Origin: an uncultured Actinomycetes bacterium
GTDB lineage: Bacteria > Actinomycetota > Thermoleophilia > UBA2241
Length of the DNA: 64,000 bases
Assembly: GCA_963725665.1 (NCBI GenBank)
Contig: CAVRZA010000002.1
Span: 352,001-416,000, forward strand
Reading direction: 5' to 3'
Part shown: piece after piece, positions 6,009-63,117 of the stretch
How the letters are laid out: the number at the start of each line of letters is the position of its first letter
Numbering within the stretch: the stretch's first letter is position 1
The notes under the pieces: generated by a model
Told to the model about the DNA's origin: nothing
Databases searched by the model: none
The model's input: only the letters and a program-made list of their open reading frames with translations
Position numbers and translations under genes: made by a program

Positions 6009-6464
6009 CTACTCCTTGGCGGGAACCACCAGGACCGGCACGTGAGCCGTGTGCAGCAGCTCCTGGGTGGTGGAGCCGAGCACCGTGGTCGTCTCGGAGG
6101 CGCCGGCGCCTCGCGCGCCGACCACGATCATGTCGGCGTCGACGTCGCGTGCCACCGTGACCACGATCGAGGCCGGGTTCCCCCGGCTGCAGGCCGTGGC
6201 CGCTTCGATCCCGGCGGCCCGCGCCGTCTTGGCCGCCTCCTCAAGATCGTCGTTGATCTTCGTCTCCATCTCGTCCCAGAGCTTCTCCATTTCCATGGCC
6301 GACTTCCAGAGCGGCTCGTAGCCGAGCCAGCCCGGCCGCCGGTCGTGGCCACAGGTGATGACGATCTTGGTACCTTGCCTGCCTTCGGCAAGATCGATGG
6401 TCGCCTTCAGGGCGTCCTTCGCAGCCGTCGAGCCGTCGTAGCCCACGACGAAGGTGCTCGCCAT
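6009..6464 (-). CDS. Universal stress protein (UspA family)
   Basis: VVGYDGS start, IVVGARG...LGSTTQELLHTAHVPVLVV end. Confidence 0.9.
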   Translation of the reverse strand: MASTFVVGYDGSTAAKDALKATIDLAEGRQGTKIVITCGHDRRPGWLGYEPLWKSAMEMEKLWDEMETKINDDLEEAAKTARAAGIEAATACSRGNPASIVVTVARDVDADMIVVGARGAGASETTTVLGSTTQELLHTAHVPVLVVPAKE

Positions 6465-6613
6465 AGCTCGTCCCCCTCTCGCTTCGTTTGGCACCGACCG
6501 ACGGGCAGTCGGCCGAAGGAAGCCGGCCGGGGCCGCCTTCCTGAGTCAATGCGGGTGCGCGGCGCGACCGTGAGTCGCGCCGCGCACCCCTAGGAACAGG
6601 CCGCCAGCGGCCG

Positions 6614-8237
6614 TCAGCCCGTCTCGCGCACGCCGGCGAAGAACTCGGCGTGGTCGTCGACGGGAGCCGCGGCGATGGCGTCGAGCCTCTCTTGCGGTGG
6701 CGGCGCCGTGACTAGGGTCACGACGATGCACGTAACGACACCGGCGATGACACCCCAGACCGCGTAGCCGAGCGCGCTCGCCGCCAGCTGGGACGGCCAG
6801 TAGTCGAACTCGAGCACGTACTTCTCGACGAAGTAGCCGATGAAGGCCGTGAGGCCACCTACCAGCGAACCGGCGAAGGCACCGCGCAGGTTGGCGCGCT
6901 TCCAGAACATCGCGAACACCGGCACCGCCACGCCGGCCGATAGGACGCCGCTCGACAGATAGTAGGCGTCCCACAATCCCTTCGGCAGGAGGTCGATGCC
7001 GAACGCGAAGAGGATCATCAGGAAGCACACGATGAGCGACCAGGCACGGCTCCAGGCCATGATCTTGCTGTCGCTCCAACCGCGCTTGCGGTACACGAGC
7101 GGCTGCAGGACGTCGTAGCTGATGTTCATGGCGCAGACGTTGGTGAAGGTCGCCATCGTCGACATCGACAGCGCGGCCAGCATGGGGAACAGGATGATAG
7201 AGGGCCCAGATCGGGAACTCCTGGCTCAAGAAGATGGTCATGATCTGGTAGGCGTCGCCGCCGAGCACAGCATCGTAGGCCGTCTTCGGCGGGAAGACAA
7301 CGAGAGCCAAGAGACCGAAGATGCTCGGCAGGATGAGCACCCAGATGTAGTTGTAGATGAGGTTGGCCCAGATGCCCTTGCGCGCCGCCTTCGTGTCCTT
7401 GGCCGACTGCGCCTTGAGCCACCAGTCCTCCTCGATCACCCACCCGGGAAGCAGGGCGACGATGGAGATGAAGATATACGGCACCCCCAGCGGGATAAGG
7501 CTCCAGGCGCTATAGCCCTCTCCGCTACCGGGCGGCACGACCCTTTTCAAATAGTCGTACATGCTCACCCCGGAGGGCAGGTCGCGGTAGGCGACGACGA
7601 CCATGGCGACGGTGACCACGGTGACGAAGATGATCGCCATGAAGAACTGCAGCACGTTGGAGTTGATCACCGAGTGGAAGCCGCCCATCCACATGTAGAT
7701 GGCGATCGGGATGCTGAACGCGAGGTACATCACCCACGGTTGCACGCCGAACTCGGGGGCGACGATGTGGGCGATAGTCCACACCTCGGCCGCCGACCAG
7801 ATGATGAAGGTGAAGATGTTGAACGGGCTCACCAGCACGCGCAGCGGGAGTCCGAAGCGGTTCTGCAGCATCTGCGGCTGCGAGATCGCCTTGATCGATC
7901 GCACCTTGGGCACCAACGCGACCATGCAGAACAGGAGGATGGACCAGGGTATCACCATCACCCAGATCCCCCCGAGGCCGTACATGTAGGTGCTATAGAT
8001 CGCCCAGGTGATGAAGCCGATCAGCAGCCACCCGGCGGCGATGCTGCAGCCCACGAGCAGCGCGCTTGTCGACCGGCTGGCCACCCAGTAATCCTTCTGC
8101 TGATCGTCCGCAGACCTCTTTCGGAGCATGCGGTAGATGGACTGGCCTATCCACAGGATGACCACGAAGTAGGCGATCATCGCCACCCAGAACCAGATGG
8201 CATGGCTCCCAACGGTGTCGGTTGCGGCTGCAACCAT
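6614..8237 (-). pseudogene. Sodium:solute symporter (SSS) family transporter, split by one frameshift near 7198-7200
   Basis: N-part (DYWVASRS, SQPQMLQNRFG, YMWMGGFHSVINSNVLQ) reads to ...EFPIWAL. The C-part continues in another frame (IILFPMLAALSMSTMATFTN...FWKRANLRGA). Could be a true lesion or an assembly error. Confidence 0.8.
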
Positions 8238-8432
8238 AGCTCCCCCTTTCGTAGCGATCACAGAAACGACCGTCCGCGATTCGGCCTGCGCCCTGCCGTG
8301 CGGCCGGGTGCACCAGGCCGCTCTCGCGACTCAAATGCGTCACGTTCTGCCTGCGCCCCCTTTCCTTCCGCTGCGAACGGTTTCCTGGCCACCGACGCGG
8401 GCGCGCCCCCTTGCGCGCCTGCGTCCGGATTA

Positions 8433-8515: not shown

Positions 8516-9154
8516 TCAGACCTTGACCCCGGCGAGCTCCTTGCACCGCTCGACACCGATCGACGCGTTCGGTCCGTAGCCGTCGGCACCGATCTCCTTG
8601 GCGTAGGCCTCGCTCACCGGGGCGCCACCGACGATGACCTTCACCTGGTCACGCAGGCCGGCTTCCTTGAGCGCGTTGATCGTCTCCGGCATCTTGGGGA
8701 TCGTCGTGGTGAGCAGGCCGCTCATGCCGAGGACGTCGGGCTTGTGCTCCTTCACGGCGGCCACGAAGTCGGCCGGTTTGATCCCCTTGCCCAGGTTGAT
8801 GACGTTGAAGCCGCCGCCCGCCAAGAGCATCGCCACGAGGTTCTTGCCGATGTCGTGCATGTCGCCCTCGACGGTGCCGATGACGACCGTGCCGATCGTC
8901 GCGCTCTCGCCGGCCGCCATGTGCGGCTTCACGAGGTCGAGGCAGGCCTGCATCGTCTCCGCGCTCAGAAGCACCTCGGGGATGAAGAACTCGCCGCTCT
9001 TCATGCGCTGGCCCACGACTTCCATGCCGGGCAACAGCGACTGGTCGAGGATGTCGCGCGCCGAGGCGCCGTCTGCCAGCATCTTCTCCGTCTGGGCCGT
9101 CGCGTGATCATCGCCGGCGATGATCATCTCTTTCAGCGTCTCGAAGTCTGCCAT
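8516..9154 (-). CDS. mttC: Methyltransferase cognate corrinoid protein (MttC-like)
   Basis: B12 cap domain (GEFFIPEVLLSA), DMHDIGKNLV (DxHxxG) and SGLLTTT, VGGAPV; directly downstream of mttB. Confidence 0.88.
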   Translation of the reverse strand: MADFETLKEMIIAGDDHATAQTEKMLADGASARDILDQSLLPGMEVVGQRMKSGEFFIPEVLLSAETMQACLDLVKPHMAAGESATIGTVVIGTVEGDMHDIGKNLVAMLLAGGGFNVINLGKGIKPADFVAAVKEHKPDVLGMSGLLTTTIPKMPETINALKEAGLRDQVKVIVGGAPVSEAYAKEIGADGYGPNASIGVERCKELAGVKV

Positions 9155-9198: not shown

Positions 9199-10677
9199 TC
9201 AGGAGATGGCGACGCCCGCCTTCTTCTCGACATCCCTCACGATGGCGCGGATCTCGTCCTGCACGTCGCTCGGGAGCGGCTCGACCTCGTAGGACTCGAT
9301 GACCTCCTTGGCCTTCTCGTTGCAGCGCTGGTAGTAGTCCTTGCTGCCGTCCATCTCCCACTCCTCGCGCACGCGCCGGTCGATGAGCCCTGCTCTCGAC
9401 TGGTGGGCGCGCATGTTGTCGCGCGTGCTCTTGCGGGAGAGGAAGTCCTTCTCGGAGCCCACGGCCACGATCTCGTCGACCATGAGCGTGGCATCGTTGG
9501 TGGGGATGCCGCGAAGGATGTACTTGCACATGCGCGCGGTCTCGTTGTCCATGACGAGCACCGCGTAGTCGATGGTGACGCCCGACTCGATCATCCCTGC
9601 ACCGTAGATCTGGTTGGCTCCTCCCAACGCAGGTACTAGTCCGGTGATGGTCTTCTCGTGTGCGGTCTGCGCATCACCTAGTTTGGAATCCGCCTACAAG
9701 CCGGCCACGTAGCTGGGCAGCAGGTAGTAGCGCGCCAGGGCCGGGACGGCGGCGCTGATGAGTGCCAGCTCCGGTGTGCCCACCGAGGCCGTGGCCCGCT
9801 GCAGGTCGAAGGCCGTCGTCGATGAGCCGTAGATCACCGGGCAGCCCTTCTCGGCCAGCTGGCAGAGAACGACGCCGCCCAAGACCTCGGCGTTGTGCGT
9901 GACCAGTGTGCCCGCCAGGGTGACCGGTGCCGAGCCGCCGGACATGGCCATCGAGAGCGGCATCGCTGGCATGTGAGCGCGCGCGGCCGAGATCATGCAG
10001 CCGGTGAACTCGCCCATCAGCTTCAAGGGGCTGACCGGGCAGCTCAGGAACTCGAGCATGGGACGCTCGGCCAGCTTGTCGCGGCCGCCGACGACGGCCG
10101 CCGCGGCGTCGATCGTTAACTCGGCGCCGTGATGGTTGAGCGCCAGGCTACAGATCGGCTTGGTGGTGTTGAGCAACGTGGCCTCGATGAGGTGCGCCTC
10201 GGCGACCTCCGGAGCGACGTCGTTGGCCGTCACGGCGACGGTGTAGACCTCGATGTCGTCGAGGGCGTCGACCAGCTTGGCGAGGTCACCGACGTCTTTC
10301 TTGGTCGTCTGGCGCAGCTCGCCTGTGTAGGGGTCGACCGCCTTGACGCCCTCGGCGAAGTTGGTGTAGCTGACGCGCTTGCCCTCGAGGACGACGTCCT
10401 TGTCGGGGGTGCGCCCGCAGAGGACGACCTTGGAGGGCGCCCAGGAAACGGTCTCCTCCAGGACGTGCTGCGGGATCCTGACCTTGCGCTCGGCCCGGTC
10501 CACCTTGCAGCCGCCGTCGGCGAAGAGGTCGAGAGCCTCGTCGTCCTCGACCCAGAGGCCCGTCTTCTCGAGCACTTCGACGGTCGCCCAGTGGATGTCG
10601 TCGAGCTCATCTTGGGTGAAGATCTCGACGCCGAGGCCTCCGTTGCGGAGACCGCCGGCATGCTGGGGTCGGATCAT
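9199..10677 (-). CDS. mttB: Pyrrolysine-containing trimethylamine:corrinoid methyltransferase (in-frame TAG at 9694-9696)
   Basis: ORFs 9694..10677 and 9199..9627 share a frame separated only by TAG. Read-through gives [44 protein letters not shown], the Pyl-site context of MttB; 492 aa in total. Confidence 0.93.
9620..9693 (-). promoter_or_regulatory. Candidate PYLIS-like stem-loop immediately 3' of the amber codon
   Basis: mRNA pairings UUCCAA/UUGGGA, ACUAG/CUAGU, GUGAUG/CAUCAC and inner UGCG/CGCA; 12 of 25 codons end in A/T versus 1 of 25 before the TAG. Confidence 0.55.
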
Positions 10678-16482: not shown

Positions 16483-16483
16483 G

Positions 16484-18441: not shown

Positions 18442-18443
18442 GG

Positions 18444-22950: not shown

Positions 22951-23224
22951 ATGGCCGCGCACCCGCCGTCGAGTACCATCCTCCGAGCGTCCCTGCCGGT
23001 GGCAAGCTCCGGCCGGGCGCCCCCGCGGCACATGGAAGTGCCTGCTTACCGCTGCTTCCTTCCGGACCTGACGGGGTTCGCAGGGTCCCATTGCGCGGGA
23101 CCCGGCCATCAACGCCGCACGCCGGCCGACGGCCTCGCGGGACGGCCCCTCGGGCGGGGATTCAGCCCCGCTGTAGCGGATTGCGGGTACAGGGCACCGC
23201 TAGCTCCCCGCCTAGCGCGACCAT
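22951..23224 (-). ncRNA. ffs: Signal recognition particle RNA, large (Alu-domain-containing) bacterial type
   Basis: S-domain CAGGUCCGGAAGGAAGCAGC; 5' GCUAGGCGGGGAGCUAGCGGUGCCCUGUACCCGCAAUCCGCU Alu-like region; ends pair; upstream of dnaX. Confidence 0.92.
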
Positions 23225-26155: not shown

Positions 26156-27631
26156 CTACAGTCTCGCCGCCTCGCGTTCGGCCTGCTGGAGTACGCGGTC
26201 GAGGGCGGCGAGGACGTCGTCGGGCAGGGGCGCGGGCCGGTGCTCGCGCGCCAGGCGCGCGAACTCGGCCCGCGCCCCTGCCACGACCGGCTCCTCGCCG
26301 CCCATCGTGGGCGGGGCCAGTGGCGGGTGCAAGGGCCCGAAGCGCACGTCGCGCAGATGCTCGCGCGTGTGGCGGTGGGCGAGGAAGTGGCCGCGCGGTC
26401 CGATGTCGGCGATCACCTGTAAGGCAGGGTCGCCGAGGCCCGTGGTCGTTTGCTCGAGCCACTCGTAGGCGCGCAGCGCCGCCTCGTGCTGGAGCACCAG
26501 GAGATGGGGCTCGAGGACGGTCGCCCCGCCGAGCAGGCCGCCCATGTCGCCCGTGATCTCGCCTCCGTACAGGGGAAGCAGGGCTGCGCCGAGCCCGGCG
26601 TGGGCGCCGGCCTCCCAGCCGATGCGCCTGGCGTCGCTGGAGAGGCTCGAGCCCTGCAAGCAGGGCACGCCCCAGGCGTGCGCGAGCTGCACCAGAAGCC
26701 AGCCCACGGCGGCGTCGAACTCCGAGACGTAGCCGCCGCTGTGGGGGTCCATGACGGAGAGCAGGTTGCTGTGGAAGACGGCCGCGCCGGGGTGGGCGAG
26801 CTGCACAAGGACCATGGCGCTCACCACCTCGGCTTCGCCGAGAGCGATGGCACCCGCGAGCGACATCGGCGCCGTGCTCCCCATGGTCGGCATCGCCATG
26901 AAGCTCATCGGGATGCCGGCCTCGGCGTACACGAGCGCGGTCTCGACGCCGGTCGCGTCTTGGGAGAGGGGGCTGATGGTGCAGATGTTGGCGCAGATCG
27001 GCGGGCGGCGGCGGCGCGCCTCCTCCGACCCCGCGACGACGGTCGCCATCTCCACGATGCGGCGCGCCAGGACGGGGTGCACCGTCGTCGCACCGCGCAC
27101 GTGCTTCAGGGTGTTGGTGAGCCCGGCGTGGCACTCGTGGAGGGGGGCCGTCCGGGGGTGGTCCTGGGCGCTCACGCAGGGCCAGAAGAACGAGATCAGA
27201 GGCAGGGCGTCGGCCACACGCGCCATGAGCTCGATGTCGGCCGTGCGCGAGGCGCGCTCCTGGCCCGTCTCCGGGTCGCGCACGCGAACGCCCACACCCT
27301 CGGTACAGAGGTAGGTCCGCGCGCCGTCGAGCACCAGGTCGAAGCGCTCCTCACGTCCCGCGAGGACGAACGCACGCGGCGCCGTCGCGAGCGCGCGCTC
27401 GACGAGGTCCTGCGAGAGGCGCACGGCGCCGTCGTCGCCGACGACGGCGCCGTGCGCCCTGAAGATCTCGAGCGCGCGCTCGCACGGGAAGCACACCCCG
27501 ACGCCCTCGAGGATGTCGAACGTCGCCTGCTTGAGGCGCGCTACGCCGGCGGCGTCGAGCGGGTCGCGCCGCAGCCGGTCGGAGAACCAGAGGATGTCAG
27601 GGGTCGCCGTGCTCGTCGCGTCCGTGTTCAT
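26156..27631 (-). CDS. Non-pyrrolysine MttB-superfamily methyltransferase
   Basis: ALATAPRAFVLAGR, ISPL, MGSTAPMSLAGAIA, IGPRGHFLAHRHTR; no in-frame stop at the Pyl-equivalent region. Confidence 0.85.
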   Translation of the reverse strand: MNTDATSTATPDILWFSDRLRRDPLDAAGVARLKQATFDILEGVGVCFPCERALEIFRAHGAVVGDDGAVRLSQDLVERALATAPRAFVLAGREERFDLVLDGARTYLCTEGVGVRVRDPETGQERASRTADIELMARVADALPLISFFWPCVSAQDHPRTAPLHECHAGLTNTLKHVRGATTVHPVLARRIVEMATVVAGSEEARRRRPPICANICTISPLSQDATGVETALVYAEAGIPMSFMAMPTMGSTAPMSLAGAIALGEAEVVSAMVLVQLAHPGAAVFHSNLLSVMDPHSGGYVSEFDAAVGWLLVQLAHAWGVPCLQGSSLSSDARRIGWEAGAHAGLGAALLPLYGGEITGDMGGLLGGATVLEPHLLVLQHEAALRAYEWLEQTTTGLGDPALQVIADIGPRGHFLAHRHTREHLRDVRFGPLHPPLAPPTMGGEEPVVAGARAEFARLAREHRPAPLPDDVLAALDRVLQQAEREAARL

Positions 27632-52036: not shown

Positions 52037-52957
52037 TCAGATCCTCAGGTAGGAGTCTGCGTAGATGACCTGGTTCTGCAGCATGCGGTAGGTCTTAAGG
52101 AGCGCCACCTGGTCGGGGTCATCGCCGTCGACCAGACGCTCGTCGAGCTCCTCCATGACCGCCGTGGCGTCGTGTAGCGCCAGCACCAGCCTGTTCAGCG
52201 GCGTCGAGTCATCGCGCTCCTCCACGACCCTGATCCACTCCATCTGCACCGCGTCTAGCGGGTCGGCGATGGCGCTGTCGAGCCCGGCCCCCATGAGCAT
52301 GACCAGGTAGGCGCGGTTGATCAGCGGGCGCGAGTCCGGGTCGCAGCCGTTGGAGACGTTGGAGAGTCCCACGGTCGTCGTCGGCGGCGGGTCGGCGAGC
52401 ATCTTGAACATGCGGATCGCCTCGACCGAGACGTGGGCCACGTCCTGGTTGCAGGTCACGGTGAGCACGAGAGGATCGAGGAAGACGTCTTCGACCGGCA
52501 CGCCGGCGGCCTCGGCGGCGGGCAGCAGGGCCTCCATGGCGATGCCCACGCGGCCGTCGGAGGTCGTGGGGATGCCCTCGACGCCCATCGTCAGAGAGAT
52601 GACGCGCGCCTTGTGGCGCGCGGCGAGCTCCATGACCCTGTCGAGGCGCTCCGGGTCGGCCGAGGCCGAGTTGAGCATCGCGCGCTGCTTGCAGACGGCG
52701 AGCCCGGCCTCCATGGCGAAGAGGTTCGTGGTGTCGAGTGAGAGCGGCACGTCGACGACCTCCTGGACCGCCTCGACGATCCAGGGCATGATCTCAGCCC
52801 CGAGCTTCTTCTGGGGCCCGATGTTCAGGTCGAGGATGCCCGCGCCGGCCTCGACCTGGCGCACGGCGAGCTCCTGGATGTAGCCCGCTTCGCGCCCCTC
52901 GATTGCCTCCTTCACGCGGGGAGAGATGATGTGGATGTTCTCACCGATGATGAGCAC
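52037..52957 (-). CDS. acsE: Methyltetrahydrofolate:corrinoid Fe-S protein methyltransferase
   Basis: MLIIGENI, LDLNIG, PLSLDTTN, FLDPLV, VGLSNVS, GLDSAIADP; last gene of the acs cluster. Confidence 0.9.
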   Translation of the reverse strand: MLIIGENIHIISPRVKEAIEGREAGYIQELAVRQVEAGAGILDLNIGPQKKLGAEIMPWIVEAVQEVVDVPLSLDTTNLFAMEAGLAVCKQRAMLNSASADPERLDRVMELAARHKARVISLTMGVEGIPTTSDGRVGIAMEALLPAAEAAGVPVEDVFLDPLVLTVTCNQDVAHVSVEAIRMFKMLADPPPTTTVGLSNVSNGCDPDSRPLINRAYLVMLMGAGLDSAIADPLDAVQMEWIRVVEERDDSTPLNRLVLALHDATAVMEELDERLVDGDDPDQVALLKTYRMLQNQVIYADSYLRI

Positions 52958-53741
52958 CGAGCGTCTCCTTTACGGTCGACAGGGACATGAGGGTGTCGAC
53001 GACGTCGTCGACGCCGGCGGCCACGGCGCTCGTCTCCGGCAGGTCGACGAGCGGGCTGCCGACGGCGTCGAACTCGGCCACCTGGCGGTCTTCGGGCAGC
53101 GTGGCGAGCAGGTTGAGGCCGTACCGCGCGATGACCTCCCGGAGTTCGGGCGCGAGCCCGTTCGGGGCGCGGTTGATGACGAGGTAGTGGTGGCCGACCT
53201 TGGTCTTGAGCTCGCCGATGAGCTCGACGACGCGGCCGGCGGTCGTCAGCCCGCGCACCGTGGGGTCGCTGACGATGAGCAGCACGTCGACGTCGCGCGT
53301 CGTGCGCCGCGAGAGGTGCTCGAGCCCAGCTTCGTTGTCGATCACCACGCACTCGTAGGAGCCGGCGATGCGGTCGACGATGGTGCGCAGCATCGTGTTG
53401 GCCGCGCAGTAGCAGCCCGGTCCCTCGGGCCGGCCCATGGCCAGCAGGTCGACGCCCTCGCCCTCCACGAGGCTCGCGTTGATCTCGTAGTCGAGCAGGT
53501 CGGCCTTGGCGACGCCGGCCTCGAGCTGACCGGATCGCGCCTTCTCCGAGGTGTCCTCGCGGATGTCGCCCACCGTGCGCTCGAGAGGCAGGTCGAGCAC
53601 GGTGTTGAGGTTGCTCGCCGGGTCGGCGTCGATGGCCAGCACCGGCCGCATGCCCCGCTCGAGGAGGCTGCGGATGAGGAGGGCGGCGATGGTCGTCTTG
53701 CCCGTGCCGCCCTTGCCGGCGACGGCGATGGTCACGGTCAT
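52941..53741 (-). CDS. cooC: CooC/AcsF-type nickel-insertion ATPase
   Basis: AVAGKGGTGKTT, IDADP, MGRPEGPGCYC, IDNEAGLEHLSR. Confidence 0.92.
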   Translation of the reverse strand: MTVTIAVAGKGGTGKTTIAALLIRSLLERGMRPVLAIDADPASNLNTVLDLPLERTVGDIREDTSEKARSGQLEAGVAKADLLDYEINASLVEGEGVDLLAMGRPEGPGCYCAANTMLRTIVDRIAGSYECVVIDNEAGLEHLSRRTTRDVDVLLIVSDPTVRGLTTAGRVVELIGELKTKVGHHYLVINRAPNGLAPELREVIARYGLNLLATLPEDRQVAEFDAVGSPLVDLPETSAVAAGVDDVVDTLMSLSTVKETLGAHHR

Positions 53742-55870
53742 GGTCTTTCGTCCCTTCGATCGGCATGGTCGGCCGCGGTGCTCTCCCTGCTGCCGGTGTT
53801 GGTCTCCTCGAGCAGCGCCTTGACGGTAGGGAAGGCATCGAGGTCGGTGTGGGGCAAGAAGAGGGCGGAGGTGTATTGCTCCATGAAGCTGTTGTCGACG
53901 GAGAGCTCGAGGTAGGTCATCTTGGCGGCGACGTCGAGGATGTCGTGGCGGCAGTTGACGCACAGGAGGGCGGTGTATGCGCCGAGGGCGCTCGTGTTGC
54001 CCAGGAAGTGGAAGCGCTGCACCGGCTGGTCGGGCAGCAGGCCGATCTGGATGGCCTTCTCCACGTTGATGTACTGGCCGAAGGCGCCGCCGATGAGTAT
54101 CTGCTCGACCGCGGCCAGGTCGACACCCACACTCCGGCAGAGCACGGAGAAGCCGGCGTAGATGGCCGCCTTGGCGCGCACCAGGCTGCCGACGTCGCTC
54201 TCGGTCAGCACGATGTCGTGTCCCACGCCGGTCTCGGACGCCCAGGCGACGACGTATTCGAGGCCGTGCTCGCCCTCGCGCAGCCGTGGAGTGAGGTCGG
54301 TAGCAGTGCGGTCGAAGCGGCCGCCCTTGTCGAGCAGACCAGTGACGAACAGCTCGGCGAGCAGGTCGATGAGACCGCTGCCGCAGATGCCCTGCGGGCG
54401 GGCGTTGTCGATCGTCCGGTAAGTGGGCTCGAAGGTCTCGGCGCTGATCCACACGTCCTCGATCGCACCCGTGCTGGCACGCATGCCGTGGTAGACCTCG
54501 CCGCCCTCGAAGGCGGGCCCGGCCGAACAGGCGCACGAGATGAGCCAGTCCTTGCTGCCGAGCACGATCTCGCCGTTGGTACCCACGTCGATGAAGAGGG
54601 TGAGCCGTTCGGTGGCGAACATCCCCGAGGAGATGACGCCGGCTGTGATGTCACCGCCCACGTAGCTGCCCACGGAGGGCAAACAGTGCACGCGCGCCAG
54701 TGGATTGACGTTGAGGTCTAGCTCGCGAGCGACGAGTTTTGGTGGCGTGGTCACGGTGGGTACGTAGGGCTCTTCGCGGAGGTACTTGGGGTCGAGGCCC
54801 AGCAGCAGGTGGGTCATGGTGGTGTTGCCCGCGATGACGACCTCGTGGATGGCGGTCGGCAGGATGTCGTTGCGGGCGGCGAGCTCTTTGATGAGCTCGT
54901 TGAGAGTACCGACGGCGAGGCGCTCGAGCGTGTACAGGCCGCGCCCGCGCTGCGAGTAGACGATGCGCGCGATGACGTCGTCGCCGTGGGACACCTGGGC
55001 GTTGTAGGCGCTGGCCGTGTCGACGACGCGCGCGGTGCTGAAGTCGACCAGGTAGACCACCACGCTCGTGGTGCCCAGGTCGACGGCGAGCCCGTAGTCG
55101 GTGCGCTCGTCGGCTGCGGGCCTCACGTCGATGATCCGCGGCGGGAGGTAGGAGCCGTAGACCCAGTCACGCATCTCGAGGGTCACGGCGACCTTCCAGT
55201 CGGCCTCGCGCAGGGTGCGCGCGAGTCGCTTGATGATGTCCAGCTCGGCGCGCAGGTCGTCGATGCCGAACTGGCGATTCATCGCTCGCCGCAAGCGGTC
55301 GAAGTCGGTCGTCTGATCGGCCAGCGAGGGCGGCGTGATGTCGAGCACGAACGTGCGCACGGCCGGGTTTCGCTGCCAGTCGCAGCTCACCGGCAGGGCC
55401 TCGGGCTTCGCCGCCGCGTGGCCGGTGGGGAAGACGGGCCCCTTCACCCGGCGCGGCGCGACGACCGTGATCGAGGTCACCGGCTGGTCGGTGACGGCGG
55501 CGGCCTGTTCGGTCGCGCTCGCGACCTGGTCCACGCCGGCCGCCTGGCCGCCCGCAACGGAGGGCACGCCGGGTCCCTCGGCCACGAAGGTCTGACAGGC
55601 CAGCGCGTAGCCTTCTGCCTGTTCCTCGGGCTTGAGGTGCGCGCTGCTGCGCACGCGGAAGGCGCTGCGGGCGGTGGCCGGGTCCGCGAAGCGGACCTTG
55701 CACCGCCCGCAGCGCCCCTGCCCGCCGCACGGCGTCTCGACCGTGACGCCGGCCTCGCTGGCGAGGTCGGCCAGGCTCGCGCCGGGCTGAGCGGCGATCT
55801 TCACCCCGTACGGTTCGAACGCCACGAGCAGCCGCGTCTCGACGGCCGTCTCGGGGGTCCTCCCGCTCAT
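53738..55870 (-). CDS. acsV: Corrinoid reductive activator (AcsV/RACo; [2Fe-2S] + ASKHA ATPase)
   Basis: PCGGQGRCGRC, AVDLGTTS, IDVGTNGE, SAGPAFEG, GICGSG, GGAFG, LGNTS. Confidence 0.92.
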   Translation of the reverse strand: MSGRTPETAVETRLLVAFEPYGVKIAAQPGASLADLASEAGVTVETPCGGQGRCGRCKVRFADPATARSAFRVRSSAHLKPEEQAEGYALACQTFVAEGPGVPSVAGGQAAGVDQVASATEQAAAVTDQPVTSITVVAPRRVKGPVFPTGHAAAKPEALPVSCDWQRNPAVRTFVLDITPPSLADQTTDFDRLRRAMNRQFGIDDLRAELDIIKRLARTLREADWKVAVTLEMRDWVYGSYLPPRIIDVRPAADERTDYGLAVDLGTTSVVVYLVDFSTARVVDTASAYNAQVSHGDDVIARIVYSQRGRGLYTLERLAVGTLNELIKELAARNDILPTAIHEVVIAGNTTMTHLLLGLDPKYLREEPYVPTVTTPPKLVARELDLNVNPLARVHCLPSVGSYVGGDITAGVISSGMFATERLTLFIDVGTNGEIVLGSKDWLISCACSAGPAFEGGEVYHGMRASTGAIEDVWISAETFEPTYRTIDNARPQGICGSGLIDLLAELFVTGLLDKGGRFDRTATDLTPRLREGEHGLEYVVAWASETGVGHDIVLTESDVGSLVRAKAAIYAGFSVLCRSVGVDLAAVEQILIGGAFGQYINVEKAIQIGLLPDQPVQRFHFLGNTSALGAYTALLCVNCRHDILDVAAKMTYLELSVDNSFMEQYTSALFLPHTDLDAFPTVKALLEETNTGSRESTAADHADRRDERP

Positions 55871-55906
55871 CCTGTCGTTGCTTTGCTCATGTATCCAGAG
55901 ACACCA

Positions 55907-57253
55907 TCACGCCTGTGACCAGACGGTCTTCAGGTAGCTCGGGATGTCGACCGCCTCGCGCGGTCCGACCATGATCTGCCAGCCCGGCAGCTCCTCCTCG
56001 GTCTCGCCCGAGAGCGAGGCGACGTGGCCGGGAATGACGAGCTTCTTGTGCGCCAGCTTGTCGGCGACGCCCGACTCCTTGACCGTCTTGGCGATCTTCT
56101 CGGCGTCGAACTTGCCGGCTGCCCAGCTTGTGAGCACCGACTGGCCGTCGGCGTCGGCCACGAGCAGCCAGGCCGGGTTGCCGGCGCCCTCCACCTCGCC
56201 CGAGACGCTGAAGTAGGTGAGCGAGAAGTTCGTCGTGATGAGCAGCGGGCTGTCGGCGCCCGGCTCGCCGATCTGGTAGAGGCCTGGCTCAACCTGGATC
56301 GGCTTCTGCGGGTCCGTGTAGATGTTCAGCCGCAGCGAGAGCAGCGGATAGATCCCCTCCGCCTGGCCGTGGTCGAGCACGACGAGGCCGGCGTACTTGG
56401 CGATCGCCTGGGTGGCGAGGGCGGTCTGGTCTTCGACCGTCTCTCCGCCGGCGAAGGCGATGAGGGGGAACCCGAAGGGCCGGAAGCTCTTCTTGAGCGC
56501 CAGACGGCGAAGCTGCGTGAAGGCCGCCAGGCTGTCGCCCAGGCCGCGGGTGCCGGGGTCGATGACGAGGTCCTCGACCCCGGCGCCGCGAACGTCGTCG
56601 GAGAGCCGAGCGAGAACCTCGAGGTCGCCGTCGTCGGCGCGGATGGCCAGCGGGCAGCCGTGCTGCTTGGCGAGCGCGGCCATCGCTTGCCAGTTCGCCG
56701 CCGTCGCGGCGTGCAGGAGCGGCCGCGCCGGTGCGACCTCGGCCAGGGCCGCGCCCATCGCCGTCGCGTCCTCGCACAGGAGGACCAGCGGCACGTCCGC
56801 GGCGGCGGCCGTGGCCGCCGCCGCGCGCGCGAAGGCGGCGGCGTCGCCCGAGGCGTTCTCGAGCGCGATGAAGTCGAGGCGCAGCCCGATGCCGACGCGC
56901 TCGACGGCGTAGGCGGCGACTTGTGCCGCGTGCGCGGCCAGGTCGGGATCGTCGTCGGCCAGCCGCACGCCGAGCCCCGGCTGGTTGAAGAAGGTCTTCT
57001 CGTGCCTGAAGAGCACGGTCTCGTTACCCACGGAGAAAGCGCGTTCGCCGGCGCCCACAGTGACGAGCTTGACGGGCGGTGCCGACGCCGCTTCGAGCGC
57101 CGCCCGCGTCTCCTCGGTGACGTAGGGGCACTTGTCGAGCTCGGTCCCCTTCTGGGCCAGCTTCATGGCGAAGGCCAGGCAGGTGGGAAAGCCGCACTCC
57201 TTGCAGTTCGTCTTGGGGAGCAGCTTGTAGATCTCGAGTCCGGTGAGAGCCAT
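55907..57253 (-). CDS. acsC: Corrinoid Fe-S protein large (gamma) subunit
   Basis: LPKTNCKECGFPTCLAFA, IYTDPQKP, TTNFSLTY, SVLTSWAAGKF, VGPREA. Confidence 0.97.
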   Translation of the reverse strand: MALTGLEIYKLLPKTNCKECGFPTCLAFAMKLAQKGTELDKCPYVTEETRAALEAASAPPVKLVTVGAGERAFSVGNETVLFRHEKTFFNQPGLGVRLADDDPDLAAHAAQVAAYAVERVGIGLRLDFIALENASGDAAAFARAAAATAAAADVPLVLLCEDATAMGAALAEVAPARPLLHAATAANWQAMAALAKQHGCPLAIRADDGDLEVLARLSDDVRGAGVEDLVIDPGTRGLGDSLAAFTQLRRLALKKSFRPFGFPLIAFAGGETVEDQTALATQAIAKYAGLVVLDHGQAEGIYPLLSLRLNIYTDPQKPIQVEPGLYQIGEPGADSPLLITTNFSLTYFSVSGEVEGAGNPAWLLVADADGQSVLTSWAAGKFDAEKIAKTVKESGVADKLAHKKLVIPGHVASLSGETEEELPGWQIMVGPREAVDIPSYLKTVWSQA

Positions 57254-57269
57254 CGAACTCACCTGCCTT

Positions 57270-58286
57270 TCAGGACGCCGTGGCGGTCGCGGGGCCGGAC
57301 AAAGACGCCGCCGCGACGGCCGCGCCGGGCGGCGTCATGAGATCGGCGATGCTCTTCTGCACGCGCTTGATGGAGCGCGGGTGGCGCATGACGACGATGT
57401 CGGCGCCCGACTCGAGCAGCGTGGTCGCAGTGATCGTCTCCCAGAGCACGCCGCGCGTGGCGAACTCGCCCCACTCCTCGGGCACGCCCTCGGGCACGCG
57501 AGACTCCTTCTGGCGCCACGACTCCTCGCCCACGTTGCAGATCATGGGCTGCTGCGTCATCGAGTCGCCCATCAGGGCGGCGAGACGCAGGCGCTCCATC
57601 ACAGAGTAGGTGTACTCGATGCCGTAGCCGAGGGCGCCGGTGTTGGGGTCCATGAGCACGCGCTCGAGCGGCAGCCCCATGTCGCTGATGAGGATGTTGA
57701 GCTGCTTCGCCAGGTTGACGTCGATGGGCGAGAAGGCGGCCACCAGGTGGCCGTTGCCGAGCGCCGCGGCGACGATCGTGCGGTAGTTCTTGTCCTCGCA
57801 GTTGGCGAGGCAGATGCACTCTCCCTTGGTCGCCTCGGCGACGGCGATGAGCACCTCGTTGTCCTTGTCGGCCACACCGGGCCCGTAGACGATCAGCGGC
57901 ACGCCCACGGCGGCGAGCACGCGGTCGACCACCCGGACGGCGTCGCTCGCGCTCGTGTCGCCGCGCTCGGGATGGCAGCTGCGCAGCTTGAGAGCGATGA
58001 GATCGGCGCCCTGCTCGACGGCCCACTCTGCCCACGCCGCGGGGTCGTGCGCCGCCTCACCGAGGGCTGAAAGCAGCTCCGGTGACCAATCGGTGGGATA
58101 GGCGTCCGCGACCTCGGCGGCGACCACCGGGCGGTGGGGTATGGCGCCCTCGAAATGCAGGAACGGCAGCGTCGTCTCGCCGCCCACCGTCACGGTCGCC
58201 GCTCGCGTGCCGGAGCCGTGGCTCGCGCCCAGGGTCACCTCACGTACGGCGCCGGGCCACTTCTCCTTCGGTGTCTCCACACTCAT
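57270..58286 (-). CDS. acsD: Corrinoid Fe-S protein small (delta) subunit
   Basis: VGGETTLPFLHFEG, SPIDVNLAKQLN, ALGYGIEYTYSVMER, VMRHP. Confidence 0.97.
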   Translation of the reverse strand: MSVETPKEKWPGAVREVTLGASHGSGTRAATVTVGGETTLPFLHFEGAIPHRPVVAAEVADAYPTDWSPELLSALGEAAHDPAAWAEWAVEQGADLIALKLRSCHPERGDTSASDAVRVVDRVLAAVGVPLIVYGPGVADKDNEVLIAVAEATKGECICLANCEDKNYRTIVAAALGNGHLVAAFSPIDVNLAKQLNILISDMGLPLERVLMDPNTGALGYGIEYTYSVMERLRLAALMGDSMTQQPMICNVGEESWRQKESRVPEGVPEEWGEFATRGVLWETITATTLLESGADIVVMRHPRSIKRVQKSIADLMTPPGAAVAAASLSGPATATAS

Positions 58287-58337
58287 CGCTTCACTCCTCA
58301 AAGGGTAGGGAGGGATTGCCACAAGGAAGGGCGCCCA

Positions 58338-60620
58338 TCAGAACAGCGGATCCATGGTCAGCGCCGGGTGCCCCTTCTCCTCGAGGAAGGGCAGTAGCTC
58401 CTCGACGCTGGTGGCCACGGTCTCGTCGGCGATCTGCTCGAGCAGGCCGGGGACGCCATCACGCTCGCAGACCTCCTCGATAGCCGGCCCCATCGACTCT
58501 TTGAGGATGCTGCTCATCCAGACGATGCGCTTCATGCCACCGTCGGCGGAGAGGAACTTCTTGCTCGTCAGGTAGTACTTGCCCATGCCCATCATGCCTG
58601 GCGTCTGCATACCGCCGCCGGCGGTGCCGGCCAGGGTCGAGAAAGTCATGCCGCACGGTGTCATGCTGGGGTCCTCGCGACTCACGATCATGAATCCGTT
58701 GGCCTCGGGCACCAAGACGGCGATGCACTCGAAGCAGCCGCACGAGGTCATGGGTGCGTCCATCATCGAGTAGAAGGTGCAGCGCTCGACCGTCTGGTTG
58801 GAGGTCACTCTGATGAACTCGTTGGGGCCCGAGAACTCGCCCTTCACGGGGTCGATGATGATGCCCTTGGGCACCGGCTGGTTCGGCCCCGTGGGGTTGA
58901 TCTCGAAGCTCGCCTTGCAGTCGAGCCAGTTGTAGGCGCCACAGAGGCCCACACGCTCGGGGTTCACCACGCAGACGTGGTTGGGTGCGAAGCTCTGGCA
59001 GAGCAGGCAGCTGTAGAAGGTGTCGACCGACTCGTCGGTGAGGGTGGCGATGCGGTCGTTGCGCTCCTTGTAGGCGGCGCGCGCCTCCTCGAGCAGGGGG
59101 TCGATCAGGGCCTCTTCGGTGACCAACTGCACCTGCACCTTGTCGACGATGTTGCCGAACACGTCGTGGATGCGCGCGTGCAGGAGCTTGCCCAGGTGCT
59201 CGAGGCGGAAGCCCTTGGCGAAGGCGTTCTTGCTCACGCGGATCCAGGTGATGTCGCGCTGGCCGTTGTGCTGGATGCCCTCGGCGCCGTTGGTGAAGTA
59301 GTGGAACTGGCGCTCGACGATGGGCTCGAAGTCCTTCTGCATCTTGCGCCCGGCGACGTCGACGATGATGCCCAGCGGCATGGCCCCGCCCTCCTCGACC
59401 GAGTCGAGGTCGGCGCCGGTGAGGATGATCTTGCCGTCCTCGACCTGGTCGGTCGGCCTCATGCGCAGGAACTCGAAGGCGCGCGTGCGCTTGCCGCCGA
59501 ACTCCATCTGCATGATCTCCTTGCGCACGCGCTCGCCCTCGAAGGCCGAACCGTAGGCGACGGGGATGCCGATCTTCTTCTGGCGCACCTTGACGCCGCG
59601 CACCTCGATGCAGCGTTGGATGAGCTTCTCGGCGCGCTCCAGGTCGTCGGCGCCGGGGATCTCGTCGAAGGGCATCGAGACGACGTGCTCGTAGGTCGTG
59701 ACGCCGGTGGGGAGGATCTGTGGTATGCGCGTGTCGGCAATGACCGGGAAGCCGTAGGAGATGGCGCCGGCCGCGGTGGCGTACTTGAGGTCGTCGACCT
59801 CGCCCAGCGCGAGCACGAAGGCGAACACGCGGTACTTGTTGTAGAGCATGATCTCGCGCGCCTGGCCCGGGCTCATGCCGCCGAAGGTCAGGGCCGAGCG
59901 GGCGGCGAAACCCAGCGCGTAGATGGCCGAGATGGTGTCTACGCCGAACGGCACCGTGAAGGTGTCGTAGCCGAGCTGCACGCCCTCTTCGATGAGCTGG
60001 TGGATGATGCTGCGCCCGTTGACGTTGCCGGAGAGGAAGATGAGGATGCCGCGGCTCTGCAGCTGACGCACGATCTCGACCGCCACCTCGTTCGACTTGG
60101 CGCAGCCGACGATGGCGGCGAACCCGGGCATGCGCCCGTCGACGAGCTGGATGCCCCAGGCCCTGAGCTGGATGTCGTCGATGGGGCCGTTGAGCACCGC
60201 CTTGTCGCCGTGCACGAAGACGTCGCTGCCGCCGAAGCGTTCGCTGGACTTGTGTCCACCGAGCACGATGCGCTGCGGCTCGAGGCCCTCGGCGAAGCGC
60301 GCGCCCTCGATTGCCTCCTCGGCCAGCAGCGTAGCCACGCCGGAGTCGAGGGTCTCGCCCAAGTAGGGGAGCCAGAACGATTCCGCCGGCTCGGGATGCA
60401 GGAGCGACCTGGCGCGCTCTACCACCGGCGCCAGGTCGCCCAGCTTCTCGACCTTGTGGCCGAGGAAGGCGTAGGTGACGGGCAGGTAGTAGGCGGTGTT
60501 GGTGAACTGCACGGGGGCTTCGGGGCCGAGGCGCTCGATCGCGTCGGCGACGAGCGCCTCGGCCTCGCCCACGATGGCGTTGGCGCCCCTGATGGCGCTG
60601 GTGGCGACGTAGCGCGACAC
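58338..60620 (-). CDS. acsB: Acetyl-CoA synthase (bacterial type)
   Basis: NTAYYLP, GQRD, YSCLLCQSFAPNHVC, GLCGA, PMTSCGCFE A-cluster motifs. Confidence 0.97.
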   Translation of the reverse strand: MSRYVATSAIRGANAIVGEAEALVADAIERLGPEAPVQFTNTAYYLPVTYAFLGHKVEKLGDLAPVVERARSLLHPEPAESFWLPYLGETLDSGVATLLAEEAIEGARFAEGLEPQRIVLGGHKSSERFGGSDVFVHGDKAVLNGPIDDIQLRAWGIQLVDGRMPGFAAIVGCAKSNEVAVEIVRQLQSRGILIFLSGNVNGRSIIHQLIEEGVQLGYDTFTVPFGVDTISAIYALGFAARSALTFGGMSPGQAREIMLYNKYRVFAFVLALGEVDDLKYATAAGAISYGFPVIADTRIPQILPTGVTTYEHVVSMPFDEIPGADDLERAEKLIQRCIEVRGVKVRQKKIGIPVAYGSAFEGERVRKEIMQMEFGGKRTRAFEFLRMRPTDQVEDGKIILTGADLDSVEEGGAMPLGIIVDVAGRKMQKDFEPIVERQFHYFTNGAEGIQHNGQRDITWIRVSKNAFAKGFRLEHLGKLLHARIHDVFGNIVDKVQVQLVTEEALIDPLLEEARAAYKERNDRIATLTDESVDTFYSCLLCQSFAPNHVCVVNPERVGLCGAYNWLDCKASFEINPTGPNQPVPKGIIIDPVKGEFSGPNEFIRVTSNQTVERCTFYSMMDAPMTSCGCFECIAVLVPEANGFMIVSREDPSMTPCGMTFSTLAGTAGGGMQTPGMMGMGKYYLTSKKFLSADGGMKRIVWMSSILKESMGPAIEEVCERDGVPGLLEQIADETVATSVEELLPFLEEKGHPALTMDPLF

Positions 60621-60622
60621 GG

Positions 60623-62701: not shown

Positions 62702-62793
62702 TGAGCTGCTCCTCGCGTCGAGACGGCGGGCGGGGGCGCGGCGCCAACCCTCGCGGGTGCGCGTCGGTCCTGCCGCCGTCGTGTGATCGGACG

Positions 62794-63117
62794 TCAGTAC
62801 TTGCGGTGGTCGCCCGACATCTTCAGGTCGACGGGGTTGGTCCGCGTGATGCGGATGCCAGCGCCGGCCCACTCGGGCTTGCTTTGCGGCGTATCATGAG
62901 CAGCCTCGGGCTCCCCTGGCGGGTAGCCGGCCGCGGCCAGATGATCGCTGACCCGCGCGGCGTCAAGCCGTGCAGGGTCGATGAGCAGCGTCAGGGTGCG
63001 TTCTTTCGCGCTCGCCTCGACGCGCTCCAGCCCGTCGAGAGTGGCGAGCGCGTCCCTGACCTTCAGGACGTGGTGGTCGGCCCAGAGGTCGGGGACGGTG
63101 AGGGTGAGTTCTTGCAC
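62794..63117 (-). CDS. HMA-fold small protein with a WADHH motif in place of MxCxxC
   Basis: LTVPDLWADHHVLKVRDALATLDGLERVEAS...LAAAGY ferredoxin-like pattern; GAGGAGGA RBS; first gene of the CODH/ACS operon. Confidence 0.75.
   Translation of the reverse strand: MQELTLTVPDLWADHHVLKVRDALATLDGLERVEASAKERTLTLLIDPARLDAARVSDHLAAAGYPPGEPEAAHDTPQSKPEWAGAGIRITRTNPVDLKMSGDHRKY

What the first reader, a model, noticed from the sequence alone, without database searches (positions are those of the whole stretch)
9199..10677. Pyrrolysine-encoding mttB in a high-GC bacterium that also carries CODH/ACS
Seen: the two predicted ORFs are one frame broken by a single TAG (9694-9696). Read-through gives SYVAGL-[TAG][29 protein letters not shown], and a corrinoid protein follows directly. 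Established: this is the position of the catalytic pyrrolysine in trimethylamine methyltransferases, and Pyl is known mainly from methanogens and some Bacillota/Desulfobacterota. Inference: this organism, which looks actinobacterial, uses a 22nd amino acid to demethylate trimethylamine. Standard annotation would call the gene a broken pseudogene.
Basis: partly seen in the sequence, partly recalled or inferred. Interest (0 to 1): 0.9.

Follow-up and report, generated by a model that had tools for sequence, protein, structure and literature searches.

The report
Pyrrolysine trimethylamine methyltransferase with marked codon
This is an intact gene whose internal TAG 'stop' almost certainly encodes the rare 22nd amino acid pyrrolysine in an uncultured high-GC actinobacterium, a trait already reported for the phylum; the less expected part is that the mRNA around that TAG carries conserved marks (a rare codon just before it and a small hairpin about 70 bases after it) that ordinary TAG stops lack.

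Summary
Confirmed. The minus-strand gene (10677-9199) has one TAG, at codon 328, aligned with Pyl334 of M. barkeri MttB; read-through scores 657 bits on TIGR02369 (cut-off 525). The genome has pylB/C/D, tRNA-Pyl(CUA), pylSc, pylSn and 14 TAG-containing methylamine methyltransferases (5 mttB, 8 mtbB, 1 mtmB). pylSc is in 54 of 58 sampled genomes of the family. RpoB is 83% identical to a record titled Thermoleophilia. Pyl in Actinomycetota is already in print (Guo 2022; Ellenbogen 2023), so the gene is a new member of a known kind. Added here: TAG ends about 37% of genes, yet Pyl sites are marked. A leucine before the TAG is TTG at 10 of 10 such sites (background 5%). An AG-loop hairpin 72-78 nt downstream occurs at 11 of 14 Pyl sites versus 12 of 1025 true TAG stops, with compensatory changes. 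Rfam PYLIS_2 already predicts the mtbB hairpin; PYLIS_3 lacks the mttB one. This scan noted the hairpins before on other genomes and the Pyl genes elsewhere in this genome. Function of the marks, substrate and acetogenesis are inferred; the window enzyme has Ala at conserved Gly110.

The parts
9199..10677 (-). mttB, Pyl-type [trimethylamine-corrinoid protein] Co-methyltransferase, 492 aa with read-through
   Evidence: TIGR02369 657 bits, cut-off 525; PF06253; PDB 7xcl/7xcm E<1e-110
9694..9696 (-). In-frame TAG, codon 328, equivalent to Pyl334 of M. barkeri MttB
   Evidence: conserved in 8 of 8 orthologs
9697..9702 (-). Codons -2/-1 (GGC TTG): rare Leu codon TTG directly before the Pyl TAG
   Evidence: TTG at 10 of 10 Leu-preceded Pyl sites in this genome versus 4 of 83 Leu-ending true TAG stops and 4.9% genome-wide; 68 TTG + 4 TTA + 1 CTG among 73 Leu-preceded sites in family loci
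9610..9632 (-). mRNA hairpin +62 to +84 after the TAG; core stem at 9613-9628; here a 6-nt loop, in most homologs a 6-bp stem with an AGGN tetraloop whose A is at +72
   Evidence: fold of this strand, 0.95 of ensemble, z -1.9; alignment A1 91% of cells paired, 9 both-side changes, 0/500 shuffles; RNAalifold finds the stem unprompted
9597..9696 (-). Rfam RF02510 PYLIS_3 match (71 bits, gathering 38); the Rfam consensus structure does not contain the hairpin above
8516..9154 (-). Cognate corrinoid protein (MttC-like), His-on motif DMHDIG
   Evidence: PF02310, PF02607; TIGR02370 185 bits, below its cut-off of 215; found next to the ortholog in 12 of 16 loci examined, several of the others being too short
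6546..8261 (-). Sodium:solute symporter family permease, candidate substrate importer (start uncertain)
   Evidence: PF00474; near the ortholog in 2 of 16 short loci
6009..6464 (-). Universal stress protein, syntenic with this mttB subclade
   Evidence: PF00582; in 5 of 16 loci
26156..27631 (-). Non-Pyl MttB-superfamily paralog (no TAG), part of the internal control set
   Evidence: TIGR02369 247 bits, no stop
52037..62872 (-). Wood-Ljungdahl cluster: acsE-like, cooC/acsF-like ATPase, acsV-like activator, acsC, acsD, acsB, cooS; probable sink for the methyl group
   Evidence: NF040764 964 bits, TIGR01702 597, NF003195 574, NF003376 403 (all over cut-off); NF040756 648 and NF005719 242 (under cut-off)

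Best explanation
The gene is an intact Pyl-dependent MttB. PylB/C/D make pyrrolysine from lysine, PylSc plus PylSn charge tRNA-Pyl(CUA), and the ribosome inserts Pyl at codon 328 (genes shown; activity inferred from established pathway knowledge). Pyl activates trimethylamine or a closely similar tertiary amine, and the methyl group passes to the adjacent corrinoid protein (inferred from homology). A stand-alone methylcorrinoid:THF methyltransferase then moves it to tetrahydrofolate; methyl-THF is partly oxidised through MetF/Fhs and, in this genome, partly condensed to acetyl-CoA by CODH/ACS (genes shown, flux inferred). Eight MtbB and one MtmB strip the remaining methyls. Because TAG is also the stop of about 37% of genes, Pyl codons are marked in the mRNA: a constrained codon in the P-site position (TTG for Leu, GCG for Ala) and a 5-10 bp hairpin with an AG[AG]N loop 72 nt (mttB) or 78 nt (mtbB) downstream. 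Selection on these marks is shown; that they raise Pyl insertion over RF1 termination is inferred. My odds: Pyl insertion 0.96; TMA-like substrate 0.75; acetogenic sink in this genome 0.6; hairpin is a selected RNA structure 0.9; marks promote read-through 0.55.
For: Pyl column and catalytic neighbours: O328, Y358 (=Tyr364) and M243 (=Met249) kept. pylB 449, pylC 339, pylD 211 bits, all over cut-off and contiguous with tRNA-Pyl on contig C6; the tRNA folds as a cloverleaf, z -3.4; pylSc 314 and pylSn 119 bits. 14 TAG methyltransferases in three non-homologous families. pylSc in 54 of 58 family genomes, 7 of 47 in one other family, 0 of 195 in the rest of the class sample; Pyl-type mttB in 75 of 80. 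Fhs, MetF and two stand-alone NF005719 methyltransferase genes, one inside the mtmB/mtbB island; no dsrA found. TAG ends 1184 of 3235 called genes. Codon outliers cluster at -2..+42 in Pyl genes (z down to -13) and are absent from 22 non-Pyl clusters (lowest -4.0; at the same columns above -1.1). Hairpin descriptor: 11 of 14 Pyl sites, 12 of 1025 true TAG stops, 9 of 1595 TGA stops, 0 of 64 non-Pyl homolog sites; synonymous-shuffle expectation 0.2-1.1 per set against 52 of 55, 46 of 58, 77 of 79, 19 of 21, 14 of 30 and 5 of 6 observed. One mtbB pair formed by two third codon positions takes CG, UA, AU, GC and UG forms. A homolog nested in the Pyl clade that has CTC in place of TAG (L153) lacks the hairpin.
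Against: No protein-level evidence. Ala108/Glu109 replace Gly110/Thr111, and Gly110 is described as 100% conserved in 66 Pyl-MttBs (PMC9842639), so substrate or activity of this paralog may differ. ACS was found in only 15 of 36 family genomes. The hairpin descriptor was fitted on the family set, including a 6-nt-loop option that the window copy needs; mtmB lacks it (0 of 6); it is patchy in Bacillota mttB (14 of 30; 74% of cells paired, 9/500 shuffles; pair-type measures not above shuffle). The 117-nt region of the window copy as a whole folds no better than shuffles (z -0.62). Shuffle controls ignore kinship. Published work holds that Pyl insertion needs no element (PMC12626013, PMC13663744, PMC2933860). 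A hairpin 70 nt downstream lies outside the ribosome footprint (own knowledge), so the mechanism is not obvious, and I looked for but saw no second SelB/EF-Tu-like factor.
Confidence: 0.8

Rival explanations
1. Pyl is inserted by plain, context-free amber suppression switched on with the pyl genes. The hairpin and rare codons are selected for another reason, such as shielding the naked mRNA behind a ribosome paused at UAG from RNase or Rho, or binding a regulator.
For: Suppression without an element is established in archaea and E. coli; UAG pausing is reported for M. acetivorans mtmB; the hairpin is 72-78 nt away; mtmB and many Bacillota mttB lack it.
Against: The -1 codon constraint lies at the P site and is shared by three unrelated protein families. 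Genes I identify as EF-Tu, EF-G, RF1 and RF2 end in TAG, and several operon genes are followed in frame by the next gene, so context-free suppression would be costly.
Confidence: 0.35
2. Pyl is inserted, but this paralog acts on an amine other than trimethylamine (another tertiary or N-methylated amine imported by the neighbouring symporter).
For: The five Pyl-MttBs of the genome are only 49-58% identical to the window copy; its subclade has NFAEG at the Gly110-Thr111 site in all 9 members aligned; it passed E<1e-200 in only 8 of 80 relatives; its neighbour is an SSS symporter.
Against: Well over the TIGR02369 equivalog cut-off; Pyl, Tyr364 and Met249 equivalents kept; other Pyl-MttBs also vary at Gly110 (Asp, Ser).
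Confidence: 0.25
3. The codon bias and hairpin are passengers of shared ancestry or gene conversion among paralogs, or a DNA palindrome bound by a transcription factor.
For: Sequences are related; nucleotide identity between paralogs is somewhat higher just after the TAG (0.74-0.81) than just before it (0.62-0.76); the mttB stem is nearly a perfect inverted repeat.
Against: The other 180-190 columns of the same alignments follow genome codon usage (median z about 0.3); mttB and mtbB are not homologous yet both have an AG-loop hairpin; invariant G-U pairs and compensatory flips point to RNA, not DNA; low-GC Bacillota keep the stem with A-U flips.
Confidence: 0.07
4. Pseudogene, sequencing error or bin contamination.
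For: Contamination estimate 5.04%; the pyl genes are on another contig than the window.
Against: Same column in 5 paralogs, hundreds of family homologs and independent metagenome contigs; frame after the TAG intact with GC3 about 0.9; all large contigs 68% GC; the trait is family-wide.
Confidence: 0.01

Closest known systems
Methanosarcina barkeri MttB/MttC (PDB 7XCL, 7XCM, 7XCN; PMC9842639; TIGR02369)
   Same: Same family score, Pyl column, Tyr364 and Met249 equivalents, adjacent corrinoid protein.
   Different: Bacterial host without methanogenesis (acceptor inferred to be THF); Ala/Glu at Gly110/Thr111. The mttB1 mutagenesis primer printed in PMC9842639 shows GCC, not GCA/GGA, at the loop codon, a hint that the AG loop is absent there (one primer).
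Pyl-decoding bacteria with split PylSc/PylSn: Desulfitobacterium hafniense, Olavius delta-1 symbiont, marine Deltaproteobacteria (PMC1976440, PMC8318568, PMC9630628)
   Same: Split synthetase, pylBCD, TAG still a frequent true stop, Sec and Pyl in one genome.
   Different: Actinomycetota; 14 Pyl enzymes against the 8 called a bacterial maximum in 2007; pylSc/pylSn lie about 45 kb from pylBCDT; trait nearly fixed in a family.
Actinobacteria with PylRS (Guo 2022) and Pyl-mttB/mtbB-expressing Actinobacteriota MAGs (Ellenbogen 2023)
   Same: Same phylum and trait; one PylSc entry is titled 'Thermoleophilia bacterium'.
   Different: In the passages seen, those papers give two genomes or 'some MAGs', no family-wide count and no analysis of UAG context.
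Rfam PYLIS_2 (RF02509, mtbB) and PYLIS_3 (RF02510, mttB); M. barkeri mtmB PYLIS
   Same: Region 100 nt after the UAG; the PYLIS_2 consensus already draws the distal mtbB hairpin with the same loop.
   Different: PYLIS_3 has no such hairpin and its source paper says mttB shows no common structure; no common structure was found in bacterial Pyl genes in 2007; the shared AG-loop form, the -1 codon rule and the contrast with true stops are not in the passages I saw.

Membership tests
Pyl-dependent MttB (TIGR02369) | Score over curated cut-off | tested here: met
   657 vs 525 bits
Pyl-dependent MttB (TIGR02369) | In-frame TAG at the Pyl334 column | tested here: met
Pyl-dependent MttB (TIGR02369) | Tyr364 and Met249 equivalents | tested here: met
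   Y358 and M243 in the alignment to 7xcl
Pyl-dependent MttB (TIGR02369) | Gly110 (reported fully conserved in 66 sequences) | tested here: not met
   Ala108; other TAG-bearing homologs have Asp or Ser there, so the residue is not strictly family-defining
Pyl-dependent MttB (TIGR02369) | Adjacent cognate corrinoid protein with DxHxxG | tested here: met
Pyl-dependent MttB (TIGR02369) | TMA:cob(I)alamin methyl transfer; Pyl present in the protein | not testable with these tools
   needs enzyme assay and mass spectrometry
Pyl-decoding organism | pylB, pylC, pylD | tested here: met
   TIGR03910/03909/03911 over cut-off
Pyl-decoding organism | PylRS (pylSc + pylSn) | tested here: met
   TIGR02367, TIGR03912 over cut-off, no internal stops
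Pyl-decoding organism | tRNA-Pyl with CUA anticodon | tested here: met
   ARAGORN call at C6:343702-343774 and cloverleaf fold; Rfam returned no match on that locus at gathering threshold
Class Thermoleophilia (Actinomycetota) | Marker-gene placement | tested here: inconclusive
   RpoB 83% to the genome titled 'uncultured Thermoleophilia bacterium', 88% to a same-family genome, 65% to a same-class genome, 50-59% to one titled Eubacteriales; best PylSc hits titled Actinomycetes and Thermoleophilia. One marker and depositor titles only; no multi-marker tree
Wood-Ljungdahl acetogen | cooS, acsB, acsC, acsD, acsE, fhs, metF | tested here: met
   acsE-like gene below cut-off; folD and formate dehydrogenase not tested
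Wood-Ljungdahl acetogen | Acetate formation from methylamines with energy conservation | not testable with these tools
   uncultured; ATP-forming step not identified
PYLIS-type recoding element | Conserved structure 3' of the UAG with compensatory changes | tested here: met
   weaker in Bacillota mttB; not found in mtmB
PYLIS-type recoding element | Absent at true stops and in non-Pyl homologs | tested here: met
   12 of 1025 true TAG stops; 0 of 64 non-Pyl homolog sites
PYLIS-type recoding element | Raises Pyl insertion in vivo | not testable with these tools
   needs reporter mutagenesis

The most novel reading that the evidence does not exclude
Bacteria that keep TAG as a major stop codon have a real, two-part Pyl insertion signal: a P-site codon rule (TTG or GCG before UAG) plus a distal hairpin with an AG[AG]N tetraloop that arose separately in the unrelated mttB and mtbB genes and is read by an unidentified factor (PylSn, a separate RNA-binding subunit here, is one candidate). 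This would answer how bacteria tell Pyl-UAG from stop-UAG and give a portable enhancer for site-specific amber suppression.
Probability: 0.4. Interest if true: 0.85.

Novelty: new member of a known kind. Interest (0 to 1): 0.55.

Why it matters
The gene itself extends a known enzyme to a lineage where the trait was noted only in passing. The counts here show a whole family of high-GC actinobacteria in which Pyl is nearly universal and Pyl enzymes are multiplied (14 in this genome), so they may compete with methanogens for methylamines in wet soils, peat and sediments, and ordinary annotation hides this. The larger point is the open question, restated in 2025 (PMC12626013), of whether any targeted mechanism selects Pyl UAG codons. 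A genome with about 92% GC at third codon positions makes synonymous constraints visible, and they name exact bases to mutate, which turns the question into a simple reporter experiment.

Tried and rejected
Sec plus Pyl in one protein: two orthologs were listed with '1 TGA, 1 TAG'; the TGA is the terminal stop. A long stem directly after the TAG in the window copy (rare CTA...CTA GTA codons): not in the minimum-energy fold, not conserved in alignment A1, whole-region z -0.62. Pairing of the UAG with +90..+94: predicted by RNAalifold but without both-side changes and fixed by the protein sequence. Proximal mtbB hairpin (+11..+28): 83% paired, one pair with both-side change; left open. New Pyl proteins from coding potential after TAG: the list is dominated by in-frame neighbouring genes and the TGA control looks alike; none of the 12 true TAG stops with a hairpin looked like a read-through gene. 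A Pyl-specific elongation factor: only one SelB-like and one EF-Tu-like protein among motif and BLAST hits. CsrA-type GGA loop (recalled motif): the fourth loop base varies. Window 23288-25975 as ATP-forming acetate-CoA ligase: it is fused to a GNAT domain and is below cut-off, more like a Pat acetyltransferase. Donor of the Pyl genes: the tree had no archaeal or Desulfobacterota rows and no clade test, so no donor is claimed; a first tree script returned no answer. Expression: only contigs were available; the one RNA run laid (X16, share 0.07) covers part of the gene at about 93% identity and does not show transcription. Paper searches pyrrolysine + Thermoleophilia (1 hit) and Thermoleophilia + Wood-Ljungdahl + methylamine (2 hits) gave nothing evidently relevant from listings and abstracts; PMC8382752 was irrelevant. 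No structure or complex prediction was run.

Full report
Observation. The feature lies on the minus strand. Translation of 10677-9199 gives 492 codons with one internal stop, TAG at 9696-9694, codon 328. The read-through product scores 657 bits on TIGR02369 (cut-off 525) and aligns over residues 13-485 with M. barkeri MttB, the TAG falling on residue 334, which is X in 7xcl and K in 7xcm. A corrinoid protein follows 44 bases downstream, then a sodium:solute symporter and a universal stress protein. cooS, acsB, acsD, acsC, an acsV-like, an ATPase and an acsE-like gene occupy 52037-62872.

Not an error. The genome (G000; 3.73 Mb, 12 contigs, 68% GC, 97.5% complete, 5.0% contamination) has 32 matches to TIGR02369. 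The five over the cut-off each carry one TAG; the other 27 matches (some are fragments) carry none. Eight mtbB genes and one mtmB also have one TAG each, 14 in all. In 80 other genomes of the family, 75 have a Pyl-type mttB; all 150 matches listed of 325 have a TAG. The eight closest orthologs have it at codon 328.

Machinery. pylB, pylC, pylD and tRNA-Pyl(CUA) are contiguous on contig C6; pylSc and pylSn lie about 45 kb away, separated by a corrinoid and a radical SAM gene. A tRNA-Sec and a SelB-like gene are also present. pylSc was found in 54 of 58 family genomes, 7 of 47 in one other family and 0 of 195 in the remaining families sampled from the class.

Host. RpoB is 83% identical to that of a genome whose record is titled 'uncultured Thermoleophilia bacterium', against 50-59% for one titled Eubacteriales. 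This rests on one marker and depositor titles. Related contigs were laid from soil, peat and freshwater-sediment runs.

Enzyme and pathway. Tyr364 and Met249 of M. barkeri MttB are kept (Y358, M243), but Gly110-Thr111 is Ala-Glu, as in all nine members of this subclade. Other TAG-bearing homologs have Gly, Asp or Ser there, so I still file it as MttB but leave the substrate at about 75% for TMA or a close analogue. Fhs, MetF and two stand-alone methylcorrinoid:THF methyltransferase genes are present, one beside mtbB/mtmB; dsrA was not found. The simplest reading is methylotrophic acetogenesis. ACS was found in only 15 of 36 family genomes (incomplete genomes included), so the Pyl trait does not depend on it.

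The decoding problem. With my own rough gene caller, TAG ends 1184 of 3235 genes (852 of 2247 long, high-scoring ones), including genes I identify by motif as EF-Tu, EF-G, RF1 and RF2 (motifs recalled). The cell must therefore both stop and read through at UAG.

Marks around the Pyl codon. I collected Pyl sites from the loci in hand (the best-scoring 30 loci per search, not all matches; sites with under 300 nt of flank dropped, 150 nt downstream for the metagenome set; four loci of the Eubacteriales-titled genome moved to the Bacillota set; the family set includes loci of the two actinobacterial-titled genomes). In clustered alignments of 100 codons either side, typical columns follow genome codon usage (median z about 0.3), while the strongest outliers are mttB +24 (GCA/GGA in 19 of 19, z -13), +23 (TTG) and -2 (GGT), and mtbB -1 (TTG in 19 of 20) and +26 (GGA in 20 of 20); 22 non-Pyl clusters show nothing below -4. 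Leucine before a Pyl TAG is TTG at 10 of 10 sites in this genome, against 4 of 83 true TAG stops, 4.9% genome-wide, 5.7% after Gly and 2.3% upstream in the same genes. In Bacillota mttB the -1 residue is Gly or Thr and no such rule is visible.

The downstream outliers build hairpins. In mttB it is a 6-bp stem with an AGGN loop at +66..+81 (91% of cells paired, 9 both-side changes, 0/500 shuffles); the window copy has a 5-bp stem with a 6-nt loop at 9613-9628 plus three more pairs. In mtbB it is a 7-bp upper stem with an AGAY loop at +71..+88 on a looser lower stem; in 25 further metagenome and Bacillota sequences 89% of cells pair, with 35 both-side changes. One pair made of two third codon positions occurs as CG, UA, AU, GC and UG. 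A simple descriptor (AG[AG]N loop, at least 5 pairs, loop starting near +69 to +84) hits 11 of 14 Pyl sites in G000, 12 of 1025 true TAG stops, 0.6% of sense positions and 0 of 64 non-Pyl homolog sites; synonymous shuffles predict about one hit or fewer per set. A metagenome homolog with CTC in place of TAG nests inside the Pyl clade and has lost the hairpin (one case, with a weaker second case in Bacillota).

Limits. The descriptor was fitted on the family set. The metagenome set probably contains many kin of that family. mtmB lacks the hairpin (0 of 6). Bacillota mttB is only partly consistent (14 of 30). The shuffles ignore kinship. Nothing here shows function.

Literature seen. Guo 2022 (PMC9630628; passages and supplement rows): two Actinobacteria with PylRS, one titled Thermoleophilia; repeated in PMC11764691 (passages). 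Ellenbogen 2023 (PMC10805028; passages, supplements not read and they may name the genomes): some Actinobacteriota MAGs express Pyl mttB and mtbB. Li 2023 (PMC9842639; passages): active site. Theil Have 2013 (PMC3639795; passages and section 17): a structure for mtbB, none for mttB; Rfam PYLIS_2 draws the distal mtbB hairpin, PYLIS_3 does not draw the mttB one. Zhang and Gladyshev 2007 (PMC1976440; passages): no common RNA structure in bacterial Pyl genes. PMC12626013, PMC13663744 and PMC2933860 (passages): no element required, no targeted mechanism known. PMC8318568 (passages): Sec plus Pyl in Deltaproteobacteria. Searches returned no paper whose listing or passages describe the mttB hairpin or the -1 codon rule; subscription journals are not covered.

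Earlier notes of this scan. One search showed notes on other Pyl genes of this genome; one drew my attention to the codon before the UAG, which one search had already printed, and others named Thermoleophilia and prior reports, which I then checked. I derived the hairpins; one search then showed three earlier notes describing such hairpins in other genomes. These are not independent support.

Verdict. It is a new member of a known kind in a phylum where the trait is already recorded. The interest lies in the family-wide prevalence and in sequence marks that separate Pyl-UAG from stop-UAG well enough to be tested directly.

Noticed in passing
L001:8471-8502 (G000 C6:342470-342501): The 3' 32 nt of tRNA-Pyl are repeated (31 of 32 identical) about 1.2 kb downstream of the gene, like an attachment-site remnant of an element that integrated into pylT, or a decayed second copy.
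   Followed up: partly
L004:1453-1854 and L001:9830-10831: pylSn and pylD themselves end in TAG, as do the genes I identify as RF1, RF2, SelB, EF-Tu and EF-G; pylSn is one of the 12 true TAG stops with a hairpin hit (5 bp, +80), possibly chance.
   Followed up: no
G000 C2 near 113758-114684 and others: Several TAG stops are followed directly and in frame by the next gene's ATG (for example rpoA then rplQ, identified from recalled sequence features), so read-through would make fusion proteins.
   Followed up: no
L113 (G000 C2:503975-505331): One mtbB copy has its last 60 codons in another frame: a frameshift or an assembly error.
   Followed up: no
G000, whole genome: About 25 non-Pyl MttB-superfamily genes and three non-Pyl MtmB-like loci (one in pieces); some relatives have 60-78 MttB candidates. 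A very large demethylase repertoire.
   Followed up: no
G010:C9:10153-10875: One relative's pylSc match contains an in-frame TAG: possible autoregulation, or an error in a 51% complete genome.
   Followed up: no
L118, L121, L122, L124, L132, L134, L135, L144, L145: Bacillota mttB genes that lack the AG-loop hairpin often fold a different hairpin at the same place.
   Followed up: no
mttB +106..+128; mtbB codon +39; mtmB codons +32 and +46: Further rare-codon outliers downstream (GAT at mttB +42, AGG at mtbB +39, AAT and CAT in mtmB) suggest second hairpins or larger structures.
   Followed up: partly
L019 and metagenome loci L154, L159, L194, L209: A subgroup of TAG-bearing MttBs has Phe at the Tyr364 position, the substitution reported to cut activity about 28-fold in M. 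barkeri.
   Followed up: no
window 11360-19468: Cluster of pyruvate:ferredoxin oxidoreductase subunits next to NuoE/NuoF-like genes and a 1063-aa fusion of a 2Fe-2S/GltD-like domain with a PorB-like TPP domain, possibly an electron-bifurcating 2-oxoacid oxidoreductase.
   Followed up: no
window 22955-23220: Large-type bacterial SRP RNA (RF01854, 191 bits).
   Followed up: no
L226:17225-18028 and L227:8965-9768: Two apparently identical copies of the stand-alone methylcorrinoid:THF methyltransferase gene on different contigs; the mtmB/mtbB island also holds an ammonium transporter and an NF053774 amine-oxide permease homolog.
   Followed up: partly
L001:35-7217: An A/T-richer block beside the pyl genes encodes a LarA-family racemase, a cyclodeaminase-family protein, glycerate kinase and an enolase-like protein.
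   Followed up: no
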